The notes: a model not told the origin generated them from the sequence alone. A DNA stretch of 29,863 bases from Candidatus Saccharimonadota bacterium (GCA_029288335.1 JARIHJ010000053.1:1-29863); one strand, 5' to 3'; shown: positions 2,997-9,023, counted from the first letter of the stretch. Numbers and translations are program-made.

Positions 2997-3260
2997 TTAT
3001 ATATTTATGAAGAGCATCACTTCGTTGTCGCGGACGGTAATGATACCGTTATTGGCGTTGAAAGTGACTGGCTTGTTGCTAGTCGTGACAGTTATCTCGC
3101 CTGGGTCTAGCACTGAGAAAAAATCTGCGTGGCCTGGCAAGATGTCGAACTGACCGACGGCATTACTGGCCGAGACGGCTTTGGCGGCGCCTTCGTAGTA
3201 GATATCGAATGGCCCACGAGCGATTACCGACAAGTCTTCGTTATCATCCTTGTGCTTCAT
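2997..3260 (-). CDS. atpC: F-type ATPase epsilon-like subunit, N-terminal beta-sandwich only
   Basis: [17 protein letters not shown] matches the epsilon G-I-L-P-G-H motif. Last gene of the operon, ATGA overlap with beta. 87 aa with no C-terminal helices. Confidence 0.85.
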
Positions 3261-4681
3261 TTTTTGTTGTCGGCTTTCTCGGTGCTGGTAGCAGTAGCTG
3301 CTGGCTTAGTTTCGTTCTCGGCCTTTGGAGGCGGCTTTTGGGCACCTTCGGATTTACCCGCTAGGATTGCTTCGACACCTGACAGGGTTTGTTCCAGGCT
3401 GTAATATTCACCCTTTCTACCCGTGAGGTGCTCTGATACGAAGAAATCTTGAGAGAAGAAGGTGATTAATTTTTGAGCGTTTTGGTAGTCGGCCCGATCG
3501 GCGGGGGAGAGTTCGTTTTCGCCCACGATGGCAATGATATTTTTCAGAGAATCGTATTTTTGCATAATGCTCATCACGCGATCGGCCAGTTTGTAATGGC
3601 GCTCACCAACGATTTTGGGGGTTAAAAGTGAGCTGGTGGTTTTTAGTAAATCGACAGCGGGGCGGATACCTTGTGCGGCGATGTCACGGGAAAGAACTAG
3701 CACCGAGTCGAGCTGCTGCGAGATTGATTGCACTGCTGGATCGGTCAAGTCGTCAGCCGGAATAAAGACAGCCTGTACAGAAGTAATCGTGCCATGTTCG
3801 GATGAGCTCAAGCGATTTTGGAGCCGACGTAAGTTAGCAAAGACCTCCGGCGAATAACCACCCTCGGACGGGGTTAGGCCAAGGTTAGTTGAAAGCTCCG
3901 TCAGAGCCTGGATATGGCGGTAGATGTTGTCGACAAAAAAGAGCACGTCTTTACCTTCTTCATCGCGGAAATATTCGGCGGCGGTGGCGGCAGCCGGAGC
4001 AACCATTGAGCGCATCGTTGGCGTAGAGTCCATCTGGCCGAAGAACATTACTGTGTTTTTGAGCACACCGGTTTCTTTCAGCGTTTCATAGAGCTCGTTA
4101 CCCTCACGTATGCGCTCACCCACACCAGAGTAGACTGAAACGGCGCCCTTGCTACCTTGGGTGACGTTATGGATCATTTCCATAGTGAGGACGGTCTTGC
4201 CCACACCGGCGCCACCAACGACACCGATTTTGCGACCTTTTACAAACGGAGTTAAGAAGTCAATTACTTTTAGTCCAGTTTCGAGCAACTCCATTTTTTC
4301 AGTGCCACGATAGCTTTTGGTACCCATAGCATCGGTGACAGATTTTCGATTTTTAACAGTGAGTGATGTGTCATCCAGCGGTGTTCCTAGGGCATCGTAG
4401 ACGTGGCCGAGTGTGTCCGGGCCCACCGGCACAGTGACTTTTTGCCGGCTTCTAAATACTTTTTGGCCACAGCGGAGGACTTGAGAGTTGGTTAAGTTAA
4501 GGCAGACGACTTTGCCGGGCCGGAAGAAGTTGACTTCCAAAAATACATCGGGGTATCCCTCAACCGTCAATAATTCTTTTTCTTCCGGCTCCTCACCTAA
4601 TACATCAACCTCTACCACTAGGCCTTTTAGGGAGACAATGACGCCAACGGAATTACCAGGTTGAGCAATTTTTTTATTCAT
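3257..4681 (-). CDS. atpD: F-type ATPase beta subunit (divergent)
   Basis: Walker [16 protein letters not shown] (catalytic Glu), Walker [10 protein letters not shown], and PADDLTDPA. Confidence 0.96.
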
Positions 4682-5541
4682 TAGGCCATCCTAGCTCGCT
4701 GCTTTTTCTTCTTGAGGCTGATCATAATTTCACGCATTCTACGGTCACTCTCACTGCGCTTGGCATGATGAAATTCCATATTGAGTAGATCATGCAATTC
4801 TTCGGCACGCTTCTTAGCTCCGGCCATAGCGTTGAAACGGCTGGCAGCCTGAGCCAGGGTAGATTCTAGGATGGTTTGGCTAAGCGCCAATGCCATCATA
4901 GTTCGCTCCATTTGCGTAGCAATGACTTCCAAACTGGGTTCGAAGATCGTATCTTCACTAGTCATAATGTCGTCGGTATCGACGTCTTCGCCCATATCTT
5001 TGATGCGGGCGGCTAAGTCAATAGTTTGAATTTCTTGTACGCCCAGGGAAACATAGACTTCATAGTACACAGTAATGGAGGCATAGCCGCTGACTGCGCT
5101 AATAACTGGCGATACATCGATATATTGATCAGTTTCGGGAACAGTAAAGTGGTGCGTGTAGGGGATGCCTTTTTGCTGCAATTGCTGAGCGCCATGGGTG
5201 CCGAGCACTACGATATCTGTAGTTTTACCATCGTAATTATCGAGCATTTGTTCGATCAGCCTTTGATCAATGTCGCCGGAAAGTCCGGCTTCGGCCGAGA
5301 TCATAACGAACACTTTTTTATTACTTTCTTCTACATTGTCACGCTCACCGATACGCTCACCAGGATCAATGCGAAGTGAAGAGTAGCGTTTCCATAGAAG
5401 CTCGAAAAACTCTTGCGCCAGCTGTGCTTTATCCTTAACTTTCGCTACCTGAGTACTGGCGGTGCTTTCAAAGACTCCGGTTAAATCCTGCACCGTAGCG
5501 ATCTGCTCGCTTTCTTTTTGAATGGCGTTCGGTCGTCTCAT
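4681..5541 (-). CDS. atpG: F-type ATPase gamma subunit (divergent)
   Basis: Lies between alpha and beta. N- and C-terminal coiled-coil segments, SAEAGLSG (cf. SDRGLCG), IFEPS and QAASRFNAM (cf. SEQASRMxAM). Confidence 0.9.
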
Positions 5542-5627
5542 TTGGCTCCCCTTGAGACAAAACTACGTTTTTTCTCAACGCGCGGCGCAAAAATGTGCGA
5601 ATTTTTGCTCCGGTTGCTCTTTTTCAT
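5538..5627 (-). CDS. Possible 29-aa basic small protein between alpha and gamma
   Basis: Hand translation [29 protein letters not shown]. Starts 11 nt after the alpha stop, and its TGA overlaps the gamma ATG (ATGA). Confidence 0.35.
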   Translation of the reverse strand: MKKSNRSKNSHIFAPRVEKKRSFVSRGAK

Positions 5628-7126: not shown

Positions 7127-7604
7127 TCGCTAGTACCTCGGCGAATTTTCTCCGGTTATCTAGTAATTGCCGGCGGAATGACCAGTCAAAAACATGGCTG
7201 CCACAGCGCAAGACCATACCGCCGAGCAGAGTAGAATTAAATTCGAAGTTAACCAATATATTGTCGTCAATATTTTTGCGGCACCAATTAGTTAGGTCTT
7301 GCTTTAATTTGGGGCCGGCCGGTGCCGCTAGTGTGATAGTTGCGCTGGGCGCTGAATCTTTTAAGTTTTCTAGGGCGCCGGCTAGTTTGTCCAAGCTAGA
7401 ACTGGACAACGGATTTCTCATTAACCAATCGTGTAATGTTTCGCTGGCACCGGGTGATAGTTCTGGAGCAGGGCTGCGTTTTCTAACTTTAAGGCGCTTT
7501 TTAATGTCATTATGAGCTAGCCAGCTAGCGTAGTTACGAACTTCGAGGGCAAGCGCTTGAATGTCTTGCCTGGAATTGACCTCTGAGGGCAACTCAAGCG
7601 CCAT
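7116..7604 (-). CDS. atpH: F-type ATPase delta-like subunit
   Basis: C-terminal ATITLAAP...NSTLLGGMVLRCGSHVFDWSFRRQL matches the delta/OSCP C-domain (DPxLIGGxxIxxGxxVxDxS). Immediately upstream of alpha, with overlap. Confidence 0.88.
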   Translation of the reverse strand: MALELPSEVNSRQDIQALALEVRNYASWLAHNDIKKRLKVRKRSPAPELSPGASETLHDWLMRNPLSSSSLDKLAGALENLKDSAPSATITLAAPAGPKLKQDLTNWCRKNIDDNILVNFEFNSTLLGGMVLRCGSHVFDWSFRRQLLDNRRKFAEVLANVR

Positions 7605-8202
7605 CCTTCACTCCGTCGATAATTTCGGCTTTGTGTTCGTCGAGCTGGGCTAGCAAATACTTGCTTTGTGCGCCTAAATCCGCATCGTGACCCAGCGTCT
7701 CTAATAAGAACGACATCACAGCATCGGAAATTTTGCTATCGAGCTGCTCCAGTCGGTGCTGCTTTTCTTCGGCGACTTCTTGCTCCATTTTGGCTTTTAG
7801 GGCGACTTGGTGCTCGCTCAGCTCAGTTTCAGCCGATTTGCCAGCGTTTTCGGCGCGCTGGCGTATCCTATCGAGCTCCTCGTGGTAGCGTGCCATCTCT
7901 TTGCCGATGATGTCTTGACTCAACTTTTCGAGCTGGGCGGTTAGCCTAGTCTCGCTAGCTTTTAGATCGGTTTGTAGTTGTGTTGACGAGCGCTCGATCA
8001 CCGCCTGAAAGTTGGTGAGCGCCTTCTCCTGCATTTGCTTCACGATTTCCGGGTCGAGATGGCCGTTTTGTGGCCTGGGCCGCTGCTCGGCATCGTGCCT
8101 TTCCGGTTTAAAATGGGCTAGGCCGTGCCGCCAGGCTAGGGTAGCGACCGCTCCGATGATTAGCGCGTCAACGATCAGGAATATTTCTAAAAATAAATTC
8201 AT
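7594..8202 (-). CDS. atpF: F-type ATPase b-like peripheral stalk subunit
   Basis: Single N-terminal TM, long Glu/Lys/Gln/Ala coiled coil, and a b-like C-terminus (ISDAVMSFLLETLGHDADLGAQSKYLL). In the atpF position. Confidence 0.7.
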   Translation of the reverse strand: MNLFLEIFLIVDALIIGAVATLAWRHGLAHFKPERHDAEQRPRPQNGHLDPEIVKQMQEKALTNFQAVIERSSTQLQTDLKASETRLTAQLEKLSQDIIGKEMARYHEELDRIRQRAENAGKSAETELSEHQVALKAKMEQEVAEEKQHRLEQLDSKISDAVMSFLLETLGHDADLGAQSKYLLAQLDEHKAEIIDGVKDGA

Positions 8203-9023
8203 AGCCTAGTTAGGATTAGGTAAATTACAGCGATAGCCACGGCAATGATGCCGACGACCAGCGCAGACATTTGGACCATATCACGGTAGATTGCCGATTG
8301 GCTCATTGGGTTGCGGCCGACTGAAATAATGCTCGAGCGGATCATCGAGTAGACTATGCTGCTGACGACTATTATCATAATCAGAAAGATTACTGTACTG
8401 ACGATAATCGGTAGAGCGTTGACCTTTTTGCCGGCCAGGGAATTCGCGACGTTTTGCAGGGCGCTAGGGATAATGGTTTTATCGGGTTGTCTATAGAAAT
8501 AGGAGACATTGACATCGATGGGCACGGTACCGATATTAGCTGAGCCGGTGGTGCCGTTTTTGGTTTTGTAAGTCTGTTTAGTTCCACTTAAGTTCGACTG
8601 GCTAACACCGATGATTTTAACGTTCTGGGTGGCAAGCATCCCGACACCGGGAATTGGTGAAGCGGTGATTGGGCTGCCAGCCGTAACTGGGCCGTTGATG
8701 TCCGAGACCAGCACTTGCTGGACACCGTTTGTTGCGACTTGCACTTGGCTGGTTTGGCCGCTGCTAACTGACAACAGAGAATTGTCGCTAGCGATAACAA
8801 CACCGTATAGATTGCTGACGTTGTCGGTATTAGCGGCTTCAACGGCGTCAGAGGAATTCTTATCCAGACTGACTAGTGAACCGGGCGTTAAGTTGCTACT
8901 GCCGGAAAAACTTTGCGACAGGGTGGTTACGGCATACGCTGCGGCCGGCAGAGAAAGAATACCCAATGCTATGACCAAAAATATTTTTGATTTCACTAAA
9001 AAGATTTTCATTTTATAGTCCAC
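8199..9023 (-). CDS. Secreted beta-domain fused to a c-subunit-like helical hairpin (RNP loop, no carboxylate)
   Basis: Signal peptide (alternative ATG at 9011), about 175-aa extracytoplasmic beta-rich region, then TM1-SIISVGRNP-TM2 at the C-terminus. First gene of the operon, in the atpE slot, with a 4-nt overlap with the b-like gene. Confidence 0.7.
   Translation of the reverse strand: MDYKMKIFLVKSKIFLVIALGILSLPAAAYAVTTLSQSFSGSSNLTPGSLVSLDKNSSDAVEAANTDNVSNLYGVVIASDNSLLSVSSGQTSQVQVATNGVQQVLVSDINGPVTAGSPITASPIPGVGMLATQNVKIIGVSQSNLSGTKQTYKTKNGTTGSANIGTVPIDVNVSYFYRQPDKTIIPSALQNVANSLAGKKVNALPIIVSTVIFLIMIIVVSSIVYSMIRSSIISVGRNPMSQSAIYRDMVQMSALVVGIIAVAIAVIYLILTRL

What the first reader, a model, noticed from the sequence alone, without database searches (positions are those of the whole stretch)
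2997..9023. Complete F-type rotary ATPase operon with no subunit a and a repurposed c-ring: candidate ATP-driven surface motor
Seen: genes in canonical atp order (E-slot, F, H, A, G, D, C), chained by 1-11 nt overlaps except at the alpha-gamma gap. The operon is bounded by a divergent promoter on one side and a convergent gene on the other, so it is whole in this window, and it has no multi-TM subunit a (atpB). Established: ion-coupled F-ATPases need subunit a (conserved Arg) and a c-subunit carboxylate. Mycoplasma F1-like ATPases show F1 can be redeployed for gliding or MIB-MIP functions. Inference: this complex keeps rotor (c-like, gamma, epsilon), stator (b-like, delta) and catalytic head but cannot move ions. 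It would hydrolyse ATP to rotate or remodel an extracytoplasmic ring, for example for host attachment, motility or macromolecule transport in an epibiont. I cannot check whether this has been described.
Basis: partly seen in the sequence, partly recalled or inferred. Interest (0 to 1): 0.92.

Follow-up and report, generated by a model that had tools for sequence, protein, structure and literature searches.

The report
Proton-channel-less rotary ATPase beside pilus genes
This soil Saccharibacteria genome carries, beside its normal ATP synthase, a conserved ATP-synthase-like motor that has no proton channel and whose membrane ring subunit cannot bind ions but displays a domain outside the cell, so it probably burns ATP to work the surface fibres and pili encoded next to it.

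Summary
Seven minus-strand genes (2997-9011) encode a c-like protein, a b-like protein, delta, alpha, gamma, beta and a short epsilon, with 1-11 nt overlaps and no subunit a.

- The genome also has a complete canonical atp operon, with atpB and a Glu-bearing atpE, on another contig.
- It has a second a-less operon of the same build, split over two contigs.
- Both a-less operons abut Pam pilus genes.

The first gene ends in a helix-GRNP-helix hairpin homologous to subunit c (hhalign 90%). It has no mid-membrane carboxylate in 267 relatives. It carries a secreted domain with a phage-cement-like fold.

Catalytic motifs are intact, and all seven genes have dN/dS of 0.02-0.06. Alpha and beta branch outside the canonical clade and fail every NCBIfam cut-off: canonical, N-type and mycoplasma types 2 and 3.

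In 15 of 301 sampled Patescibacteria, this machine is the only F-type ATPase and no atpB was found. In Saccharimonadia it is followed by a membrane-anchored fibre gene and Pam pilins in 50 of 50 loci. In other classes it lies next to giant fibre genes.

An ATP-driven surface motor is the best reading, but it is unproven, and both complex predictions were inconclusive. Papers call these genes "ATP synthase components". This scan has flagged the same system on other genomes before.

The parts
8199..9011 (-). c-like membrane subunit. It has a signal peptide (cleavage likely after AYA), a beta-rich outer domain of about 150 aa, a short helix, and a C-terminal helix-GRNP-helix hairpin without a carboxylate.
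   Evidence: Translation; family alignments A1 and A2 with an invariant GRNP; hhalign against canonical c at 90%, E 1.6e-6; AF2 pLDDT 87.5; Foldseek matches to phage capsid cement proteins; residue table for 267 relatives.
7594..8202 (-). b-like outer-stalk subunit: one N-terminal membrane helix followed by a long helix.
   Evidence: Translation; no Pfam hit; hhalign against canonical b at 75%, E 2.6e-5; a conserved position in 85 loci.
7116..7604 (-). Delta (OSCP)-like subunit.
   Evidence: PF00213 at 29.9 bits, above its cut-off of 22.3; hhalign against canonical delta at 96.8%, E 2.3e-10.
5639..7126 (-). Alpha-like non-catalytic subunit. The P-loop reads GDSKSGKS and the Arg finger is kept.
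   Evidence: Pfam; NCBIfam scores below all cut-offs; alignment; tree.
5542..5638 (.). Inserted 101-nt repeat element between alpha and gamma, flanked by a duplicated AGCCAAATGA. It is not part of the machine.
   Evidence: Absent from L064; related copies on contigs C65 and C75; it folds into hairpins.
4681..5541 (-). Gamma-like central shaft.
   Evidence: PF00231 at 88 bits. It is closest to the gamma of the second a-less operon (E 6e-66), against 7e-8 for the canonical gamma.
3257..4681 (-). Beta-like catalytic subunit. Walker A (GGAGVGKT), the catalytic Glu (GERIREG) and DDLTDPA are intact.
2997..3260 (-). Short epsilon: the beta-sandwich only, without the C-terminal inhibitory helices.
   Evidence: PF02823. 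F1-like epsilons have a median length of 87 aa, against 141 aa for canonical ones.
1933..2967 (+). T protein: a membrane-anchored, fibre-like protein (N-terminal helix, repeat region, C-terminal beta domain), convergent to epsilon.
   Evidence: Translation. It was present in 50 of 50 Saccharimonadia loci that had room for it. Its C-terminal domain is shared with giant proteins next to orphan c-like genes. AF2 and Foldseek give only weak matches to tailspike tips and H-type lectins.
515..1819 (-). PamT-like Pam pilus subunit with an extra N-terminal part.
   Evidence: NF058579 at 247.9 bits (cut-off 240) and NF058581 at 143 bits.
3..368 (-). N-terminus of the next Pam pilin. The gene continues on contig C56.
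   Evidence: Its sequence overlaps the 5'-open pilin ORF of C56 almost exactly, and Pam pilins of relatives match both parts.

Best explanation
The operon encodes a second rotary ATPase that lacks Fo, in a soil Saccharimonadia (Patescibacteria) bacterium.

Shown:
- An alpha3beta3-type head with intact catalytic motifs.
- A gamma shaft and a truncated epsilon.
- A retained outer stalk (delta plus a one-helix b-like protein).
- In place of subunits a and c, a secreted protein. Its C-terminal helix-GRNP-helix hairpin is homologous to subunit c but has no membrane carboxylate. Its N-terminal domain has a phage-cement-like fold and faces outward.
- No ion channel partner is encoded, and related bacteria have no subunit a at all.

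Inferred:
- The hairpins form a ring whose GRNP loops are gripped by gamma and epsilon, as in F1Fo.
- ATP hydrolysis turns or strains this ring against the stalk-held head.
- Because no ion path exists, the torque goes to the outer crown of domains. From there it reaches surface fibres encoded alongside: the T fibre and Pam pili here, giant fibres in other classes. This could serve their mounting, movement or tensioning during contact with the host.
- The short epsilon fits a machine that runs in the hydrolysis direction.
For: Gene content and order.

This is a paralogue. A canonical operon with atpB and a Glu-bearing atpE lies on C62/C20. A second a-less operon lies on C87 and C40.

The first gene is c-like:
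- GRNP is invariant.
- hhalign against canonical c gives 90%.
- PF00137 weakly hits the hairpin of the G245 orthologue.
- AF2 predicts the hairpin.

No carboxylate: 0 of 267 relatives have D or E at +14 to +16 or +18 to +27 after GRNP, and 2 have one at +17.

Head and stalk are competent.

Selection: dN/dS is 0.02-0.06 for all seven genes.

Lineage: alpha and beta fall outside the canonical clade, which includes E. coli.

Subunit a is not needed. In 15 of 301 genomes the only beta is of this type and no atpB was found. Loci in such genomes (G057, G126, G181, G198, G245, G258, G286, G300; G022 also has an A/V-type ATPase) were inspected directly.

Surface context:
- T fibre plus Pam pilins follow in 50 of 50 loci.
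- Giant fibre genes lie next to the operon in 10 of 10 distant loci.
- The c-like outer domain recurs in giant surface proteins.
- Orphan c-like genes sit beside giant proteins that carry the T-type C-terminal domain.

Precedent: the mycoplasma Type 3 F1-like ATPase is needed for a surface system. [quoted passage not shown]
Against: - There are no expression, biochemical or imaging data for this locus; only soil DNA runs hold it.
- Ring formation and rotation are inferred only.
- The gamma + epsilon + four-hairpin prediction scored 0.32, against a mark of 0.34, and one control scored 0.35. The c-like/T ectodomain pair scored 0.00.
- No membrane partner for the stator is identified. The b-like helix has no conserved polar residue, so it is unclear what the ring turns against.
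- Pam pilins and the ATPase do not strictly co-occur. G063, G186, G233, G291 and G014 have the c-like gene without Pam hits. G197, G015, G092 and G173 have Pam pilins with only a canonical beta.
- Orphan c-like genes show that the membrane protein can be encoded away from F1 genes.
- A minority of relatives (18 of 267, including this genome's second copy) have Glu at +12.
Confidence: 0.55

Rival explanations
1. The F1-like head does not spin a ring. It docks on a static platform of c-like proteins and acts like the FliI-FliH-FliJ ATPase of type III secretion. It would energise export, unfolding or donor-strand assembly of fibre and pilin subunits at the membrane.
For: - FliI, FliH and FliJ are homologues of alpha/beta, b/delta and gamma, by established knowledge that is also discussed in 10.64898/2026.10.01.756066.
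- The operon always lies next to secreted fibre or pilin genes.
- The Pam pilus has no identified assembly machine (PMC13278184).
- The stator has no obvious membrane counterpart.
Against: - The alpha/beta pair, gamma, epsilon, delta and b are all of the F-type build, not the homohexamer build. FliI models score far below their cut-offs.
- The c-type GRNP loop, which in F1Fo grips the rotor, is invariant in all but one of 268 proteins examined: GRNP in 266, GRQP in one, no motif in one.
- Pam pilins carry Sec signal peptides and occur in genomes without this ATPase.
Confidence: 0.2
2. It is still an ion-translocating ATPase. It would use either the canonical subunit a in trans or an unconventional path through the polar residue at +12/+13 of the hairpin.
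For: - A semi-conserved polar residue sits one turn before the canonical site: Q in 193 of 267, E in 18, and N in the distant clade.
- This genome does encode a subunit a elsewhere.
- In some lineages this is the only F-type ATPase.
Against: - Gln and Asn cannot carry a proton the way Asp and Glu do (established F1Fo mechanism).
- 15 sampled genomes have the machine and no atpB hit, several of them assembled in one or two contigs.
- No other polytopic membrane gene is conserved in the operon.
- The b-like helix has no conserved charge.
Confidence: 0.07
3. It is a decaying or functionless duplicate of the atp operon, kept by chance next to pilus genes.
For: It is a paralogue, and it is not universally present in the order.
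Against: - All seven genes are intact, with dN/dS of 0.02-0.06 at dS of 0.33-0.64.
- The architecture is conserved across classes of the phylum.
- The family has 1,378 clusters at 50% identity with E <= 1e-30.
Confidence: 0.02

Closest known systems
Mycoplasma Type 3 'F1-like X0' ATPase (MSC_0618-0624 / MMCAP2_0575-0581), needed for the MIB-MIP antibody-cleavage system (PMC12994834)
   Same: - An extra seven-gene F1-derived cluster in a genome-reduced, host-dependent bacterium that also has a canonical ATP synthase.
- It has alpha-, beta-, gamma- and epsilon-like subunits and no subunit a or canonical c.
- It includes a membrane protein with a signal peptide, an outer part and two C-terminal membrane helices.
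- It is genetically linked to a surface system.
   Different: - The window's proteins fail the NCBIfam cut-offs for these families: beta 389 against 570, alpha 264 against 520.
- This operon keeps delta and a b-like stalk, which Type 3 lacks.
- It has no 12-helix membrane protein and no MMCAP2_0580-like protein.
- Its two-helix protein is demonstrably c-like (GRNP loop).
- Its partner genes are pili and fibres, not MIB-MIP.
Mycoplasma mobile Type 2 / G1-ATPase gliding motor (PDB 9io5; PMC8406192)
   Same: An F1-derived ATPase redeployed for surface mechanics that runs on ATP hydrolysis.
   Different: - The window's beta is closer to canonical betas (about 354 bits) than to G1 beta (286 bits).
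- The NF045858 and NF045863 cut-offs are not met.
- G1 forms cytoplasmic dimer chains and has no c-like ring or b/delta stalk.
Canonical bacterial F1Fo ATP synthase (atpIBEFHAGDC)
   Same: The gene order is (E-slot) F H A G D C. All F1 and stalk subunits are homologous. The catalytic motifs and the c-type RNP loop are present.
   Different: - It has no subunit a.
- The c-like subunit has no carboxylate and no GxGxGxG helix, and it carries a 150-aa outer domain.
- Epsilon lacks its C-terminal helices.
- Alpha and beta score below the equivalog cut-offs and lie outside the canonical clade.
N-ATPase (alternate F1Fo; TIGR03305 / TIGR03324)
   Same: A second F-type operon that lives beside the main one.
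   Different: N-ATPases keep subunits a and c with ion-binding sites, have AtpQ/AtpR and a different gene order. Their cut-offs are not met here: 408 against 752, and 345 against 750.
Flagellar / type III secretion ATPase complex FliI-FliH-FliJ
   Same: A homologous ATPase, stalk and shaft set that serves a surface appendage.
   Different: It is a homohexamer of one ATPase, with no alpha/beta pair and no epsilon, delta or c-like ring. FliI and SctN models score 180-217 bits against cut-offs of 380-620.

Membership tests
Canonical F1Fo ATP synthase | Alpha and beta reach the NCBIfam equivalog scores (atpA TIGR00962 484.45; atpD TIGR01039 462.85) | tested here: not met
   Alpha scores 389.4 and beta 434.1. 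Canonical Patescibacteria betas score 750-840 bits.
Canonical F1Fo ATP synthase | Subunit a (PF00119) is encoded with the operon | tested here: not met
   No such ORF lies in or beside the operon. The genome's only PF00119 hit is in the other, canonical operon on C62.
Canonical F1Fo ATP synthase | The c subunit has a mid-membrane Asp or Glu in helix 2 | tested here: not met
   Position +16 after GRNP is Leu here. In 267 relatives, D or E is absent at +14 to +16 and +18 to +27, and present in 2 at +17.
Canonical F1Fo ATP synthase | Catalytic beta motifs (Walker A, catalytic Glu) and the alpha Arg finger | tested here: met
   GGAGVGKT and GERIREG in beta; SVSRVGG in alpha.
Canonical F1Fo ATP synthase | Alpha and beta group with canonical sequences in a tree | tested here: not met
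   Canonical sequences, including E. coli, form one clade (SH-aLRT 100) that excludes all 18 F1-like alphas and all 18 F1-like betas.
ATP synthase subunit c (PF00137) | Helix-R(N/Q)P-helix hairpin homologous to proteolipid c | tested here: met
   GRNP is invariant. hhalign gives 90.2%, E 1.6e-6. AF2 predicts the hairpin at 203-237 and 239-273. The Pfam HMM alone gives no hit for this protein.
ATP synthase subunit c (PF00137) | Gly-rich helix 1 and an ion-binding carboxylate in helix 2 | tested here: not met
   Helix 1 is hydrophobic with no GxGxGxG motif, and helix 2 has no carboxylate.
Mycoplasma Type 3 F1-like X0 ATPase | Beta and alpha reach NF045934 (570) and NF045936 (520) | tested here: not met
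   Scores are 389.2 and 263.7.
Mycoplasma Type 3 F1-like X0 ATPase | 12-helix X0 membrane protein, and no b/delta stalk | tested here: not met
   No polytopic ORF is present. Delta and a b-like protein are present. The family description is from PMC12994834.
Mycoplasma Type 3 F1-like X0 ATPase | [quoted passage not shown] | tested here: inconclusive
   The architecture is the same. No sequence match to any NCBIfam model was found. No mycoplasma sequence was at hand for a direct comparison.
Mycoplasma Type 2 (G1) gliding ATPase | Reaches NF045858 (850) and NF045863 (600) | tested here: not met
   Scores are 359.2 and 310.2. PDB 9io5_A is a weaker match than canonical betas.
N-ATPase | Reaches TIGR03305 (752) and TIGR03324 (750.5), with its own a and c subunits | tested here: not met
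   Scores are 408 and 345.5. The operon has no a or c genes.
Pam pilus gene cluster (PMC13278184) | Adjacent Pam pilin genes (NF058579 / NF058581) | tested here: met
   ORF 515-1819 scores 247.9 and 143.4 bits, above both cut-offs. The cluster continues on C56. The same order was seen in 50 of 50 relatives.

The most novel reading that the evidence does not exclude
The ring of c-like hairpins is the membrane base on which surface fibres are mounted: the T-type fibre, giant fibres and perhaps Pam pili. The F1-like head turns that base. This would make it an ATP-driven rotary surface appendage of ultrasmall bacteria, a third kind of rotary organelle beside the flagellum and the archaellum. It would also be the missing energy source for the Pam system.
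Probability: 0.15. Interest if true: 0.95.

Novelty: new variant of a known kind. Interest (0 to 1): 0.8.

Why it matters
[quoted passage not shown] Part of those annotations are this different machine.

In about one in twenty sampled genomes it is the only F-type ATPase, and it cannot couple to ions. That changes the energy budgets inferred for those lineages.

It is also the only conserved ATP-consuming apparatus next to the newly described Pam pilus, whose assembly is currently modelled without any energy source or envelope machine.

The kind (F1 redeployed for surface work) is known only from mycoplasmas. Here it keeps a c-type rotor and a full stator, so it would allow a direct test of rotary torque being used for something other than ion transport.

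Cultivable and transformable Saccharibacteria exist, so the question can be tested.

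Tried and rejected
- **Gamma + epsilon + four c-like hairpins (complex prediction).** The score was 0.32 against a mark of 0.34, and a control reached 0.35. 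The best run placed the GRNP loops on epsilon 28-46 and gamma 197-199, as in F1Fo. I do not count this as support.
- **c-like ectodomain + T ectodomain (complex prediction).** The score was 0.00, which is no evidence either way.
- **Conserved charge in the b-like membrane helix as a minimal ion path.** E6 and D12 of the window protein are not conserved in relatives. Rejected.
- **Strict co-occurrence with Pam pilins across the phylum.** It does not hold in either direction. The link is firm only as synteny within Saccharimonadia.
- **Outer domain of the c-like protein inside the adjacent giant proteins of the fetched loci or elsewhere in this genome.** No hits beyond the two c-like genes. Elsewhere in the phylum the domain does occur in giant ORFs.
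- **Supplementary proteomics of the Pam preprint.** These files are not held.
- **Promoter and terminator scan.** Uninformative.
- **Fold of the T protein.** Only weak matches to tailspike tips and H-type lectins, with a best E of 0.008. This is a lead only.
- **Literature searches for a described a-less ATPase in Patescibacteria or Saccharibacteria.** They found none.

Full report
**What is in the window.** On the minus strand, seven ORFs run from 9011 (or 9023) to 2997. Pfam names five of them: delta/OSCP, alpha, gamma, beta and the epsilon N-domain. The junctions are overlaps of 4, 11 and 11 nt, a 97-nt gap, then overlaps of 1 and 4 nt.

The gap is a 101-nt insertion flanked by a duplicated AGCCAAATGA. 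It is absent from the orthologous operon of a related soil contig (L064) and has related copies on two other contigs. No ORF with many membrane helices lies in or next to the operon. The flanks are a divergent gene (9155-9757) and a convergent one (1933-2967).

**The rest of the genome changes the picture.** The window is contig C42 of a 778-kb assembly of 104 contigs, rated 92.5% complete.
- PF00119 (subunit a) and PF00137 (subunit c) each hit once, side by side on contig C62. They head a canonical a-c-b-delta-alpha-gamma-beta operon that runs off the contig and continues on C20. Its c subunit has the usual Glu.
- A third alpha/beta pair lies on C40, with gamma and epsilon. Its missing front part (c-like, b-like and delta genes) lies at the end of C87.

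The bacterium therefore has one canonical ATP synthase and two a-less operons of the same build.

**The first gene.** It encodes the following, in order:
- a signal peptide;
- a beta-rich domain of about 150 residues;
- a short helix;
- two C-terminal membrane helices joined by the loop GRNP.

AlphaFold2 models this layout with a mean pLDDT of 87.5. The outer domain matches phage capsid cement and decoration proteins: Sf11, Borrelia phage BB1, TW1 and T1, with a best E of 3.8e-4 and a target TM-score of 0.57. This agrees with faint Pfam hits in relatives.

Evidence on the hairpin:
- A profile of it aligns to a profile of canonical c subunits with 90% probability (E 1.6e-6), loop on loop.
- Among 268 family members, GRNP occurs in 266 and GRQP in one.
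- Canonical c subunits of the same phylum have Glu or Asp at +16/+17 after the loop. The family has none at +14 to +16 or +18 to +27, and two at +17.
- A polar residue sits at +12: Gln in 193, Glu in 18. The distant clade has Asn at +13.

The topology puts the added domain outside the cell, as for the N-terminus of subunit c.

**Head and stalks look functional.**
- Beta keeps Walker A, the catalytic Glu and DDLTDPA. Alpha keeps its Arg finger.
- The delta-like protein matches canonical delta at 96.8% and the b-like protein matches canonical b at 75% in profile comparisons.
- Epsilon is the beta-sandwich alone: median 87 aa in 78 relatives, against 141 aa for canonical ones.
- Against the orthologous operon in L064, all seven genes have dN/dS of 0.020-0.060 at dS of 0.33-0.64. 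There is no sign of decay.

**Family placement.** Every alpha and beta score is below the curated NCBIfam cut-offs for canonical atpA/atpD, the N-ATPase, mycoplasma Type 3 (MSC_0618/0619), the M. mobile gliding ATPase and FliI/SctN. Solved canonical betas match better (about 354 bits) than the G1-ATPase beta (286 bits).

I built a tree of 74 alpha and beta sequences, rooted on the alpha/beta split. All canonical sequences, including E. coli, form one clade (support 100). The a-less sequences form two further clades outside it. One is a Saccharimonadia clade that holds both copies of this genome. The other comes from other classes. With only E. coli as an outside reference, I cannot separate an old split from fast evolution.

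**Distribution.**
- The c-like family has 1,378 clusters at 50% identity with E <= 1e-30. 226 species genomes carry the Saccharimonadia-type motif pair.
- In a sample of 301 Patescibacteria genomes, 176 have a beta hit and 158 have atpB.
- Fifteen have only a low-scoring beta of the a-less type and no atpB: G022, G026, G057, G081, G126, G128, G148, G181, G193, G198, G245, G258, G274, G286 and G300. Fourteen of these also have a c-like-sized ORF.
- I inspected ten loci of this distant clade. Nine of them come from those fifteen genomes; the tenth, G064, also has a canonical operon. Nine show c-like, b-like, delta-like, alpha, gamma, beta and epsilon. G245 has no b/delta-like ORFs between c-like and alpha.
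- G198, G245, G181 and G300 have no other rotary ATPase. G022 also has an A/V-type one.

The machine therefore does not depend on a subunit a encoded elsewhere. The sample tallies include G154, which is flagged unpublished. No individual claim rests on it.

**Neighbours.**
- ORF 515-1819 passes the NCBIfam models for PamT and the Pam pilin C-domain.
- The next pilin starts at 368 and continues on contig C56, which holds a further pilin.
- The second a-less operon, on C40, is followed by a T-type gene, Pam pilins and chaperone-like genes.
- Of 80 named Saccharimonadia loci, 61 hold the whole operon. Of the 50 with at least 2.5 kb beyond epsilon, all 50 have the convergent T gene and all 50 have Pam pilins.
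- In the ten distant loci, a giant ORF (617 to more than 2,200 aa within the fetched stretch; five exceed 1,500 aa and several run off the stretch) lies next to the operon in all ten. One carries the endosialidase-chaperone domain typical of phage fibres.
- Orphan c-like genes in four relatives sit in a conserved cluster with proteins of about 900 and 960 aa, followed by a large protein (1,267 to 2,055 aa in three of them; truncated by the contig end in G087). In G186 and G277 its C-terminal domain matches that of T-type proteins.
- Across the phylum, Pam pilins and the ATPase each occur without the other.

The constant partner is thus a surface fibre, not the Pam pilus as such.

**Literature.**
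[quoted passage not shown] It reads this as coupling to ATP production, and it concludes that no dedicated envelope machinery exists.
- A rotary-ATPase evolution preprint mentions unusual neighbourhoods of beta homologues in CPR, without description.
- Work on Southlakia and a Patescibacteria review speak of one F-type ATP synthase.
- Searches for an F1-like or a-less ATPase in these bacteria found nothing.
- The nearest described systems are the mycoplasma F1-like ATPases. The Type 3 cluster is required for MIB-MIP. [quoted passage not shown]
- Earlier notes of this scan describe the same system on many other genomes. They agree with what I tested, but they are not independent evidence.

**Mechanism.** Shown:
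- a complete F1 with both stalks;
- a c-homologous hairpin that cannot bind ions in the canonical way;
- no subunit a;
- strong constraint on all seven genes;
- a surface-fibre context.

Inferred:
- the hairpins form a ring held by gamma and epsilon through the GRNP loops;
- ATP hydrolysis turns or strains it against the stalk;
- the work is delivered outside through the crown of cement-like domains to fibres.

Keeping delta and b across the phylum argues for real torque, because a stalk is only needed to resist it. The weak point is the missing membrane counterpart of the stator. The main rival is a secretion or assembly ATPase on a static platform. An ion-coupled machine and a dead duplicate are unlikely. 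Both interaction predictions were inconclusive.

**Verdict.** This is a real, conserved variant of the F-type ATPase that the papers I could search do not describe. It works like the mycoplasma F1-like ATPases in principle but is not a member of their families. Its function at the cell surface is plausible and testable, but it has not been shown.

Noticed in passing
window 5542-5638: A 101-nt insertion sits at the alpha-gamma junction with a duplicated AGCCAAATGA. The duplication regenerates the alpha stop and the gamma start, so both genes stay intact. Related copies lie on contigs C65 (93% over 59 nt) and C75 (83% over 72 nt). It looks like a small mobile or repeated intergenic element.
   Followed up: partly
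window 12598-24632: A type IV pilus cluster (PilM, two unnamed genes, PilB, PilT, PilC and at least four prepilin-like genes) lies downstream of the divergent genes 9155-9757 and 9754-12501. In relatives this side of the ATPase operon varies.
   Followed up: partly
G000 contigs C87:211-2162 and C40:2-3832: A second a-less F1-like operon of the same seven-gene build is split by a contig break. It is followed on C40 by a T-type fibre gene, Pam pilins and chaperone-like genes. Its c-like protein has Glu at +12 after GRNP.
   Followed up: yes
G000 contig C62:17340-19310 (locus L040): The canonical atp operon holds three extra small ORFs (139, 80 and 150 aa) between alpha, gamma and beta. The compact operon of relative G063 lacks them. 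Two of them, like gamma, end in the residues NG.
   Followed up: no
G000 contigs C62 end / C20, C40 start, C56 start: The beta fragments on C62 and C20 overlap but differ at many bases and at two of about 60 residues, which suggests strain mixture. C40 and C56 begin with Nextera adapter remnants (translated as DVYKRQ). These are assembly artefacts.
   Followed up: partly
loci L031, L148, L149, L150 (G087, G233, G186, G277): Orphan c-like genes without F1 genes sit in a conserved cluster: a ~900-aa protein, a ~960-aa protein, the c-like gene, then a large protein (1,267-2,055 aa in three of the loci; cut off by the contig end in G087). In G186 and G277 its C-terminal domain matches that of T-type fibre proteins.
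   Followed up: partly
G198:C1, about 179,000-214,000 (start in L056:13229): An ORF reported as 11,716 aa begins right after the a-less operon. Near its end it holds a copy of the domain found on the c-like protein.
   Followed up: no
G022:C1:438084-443280: This Patescibacteria genome has an A/V-type ATPase with a duplicated c subunit in addition to the a-less F1-like operon. It has no F-type subunit a.
   Followed up: no
window 24629-25549 and 28762-29748: A XerC/D-type tyrosine recombinase and a weak serine-recombinase-like ORF lie near the end of the contig.
   Followed up: no
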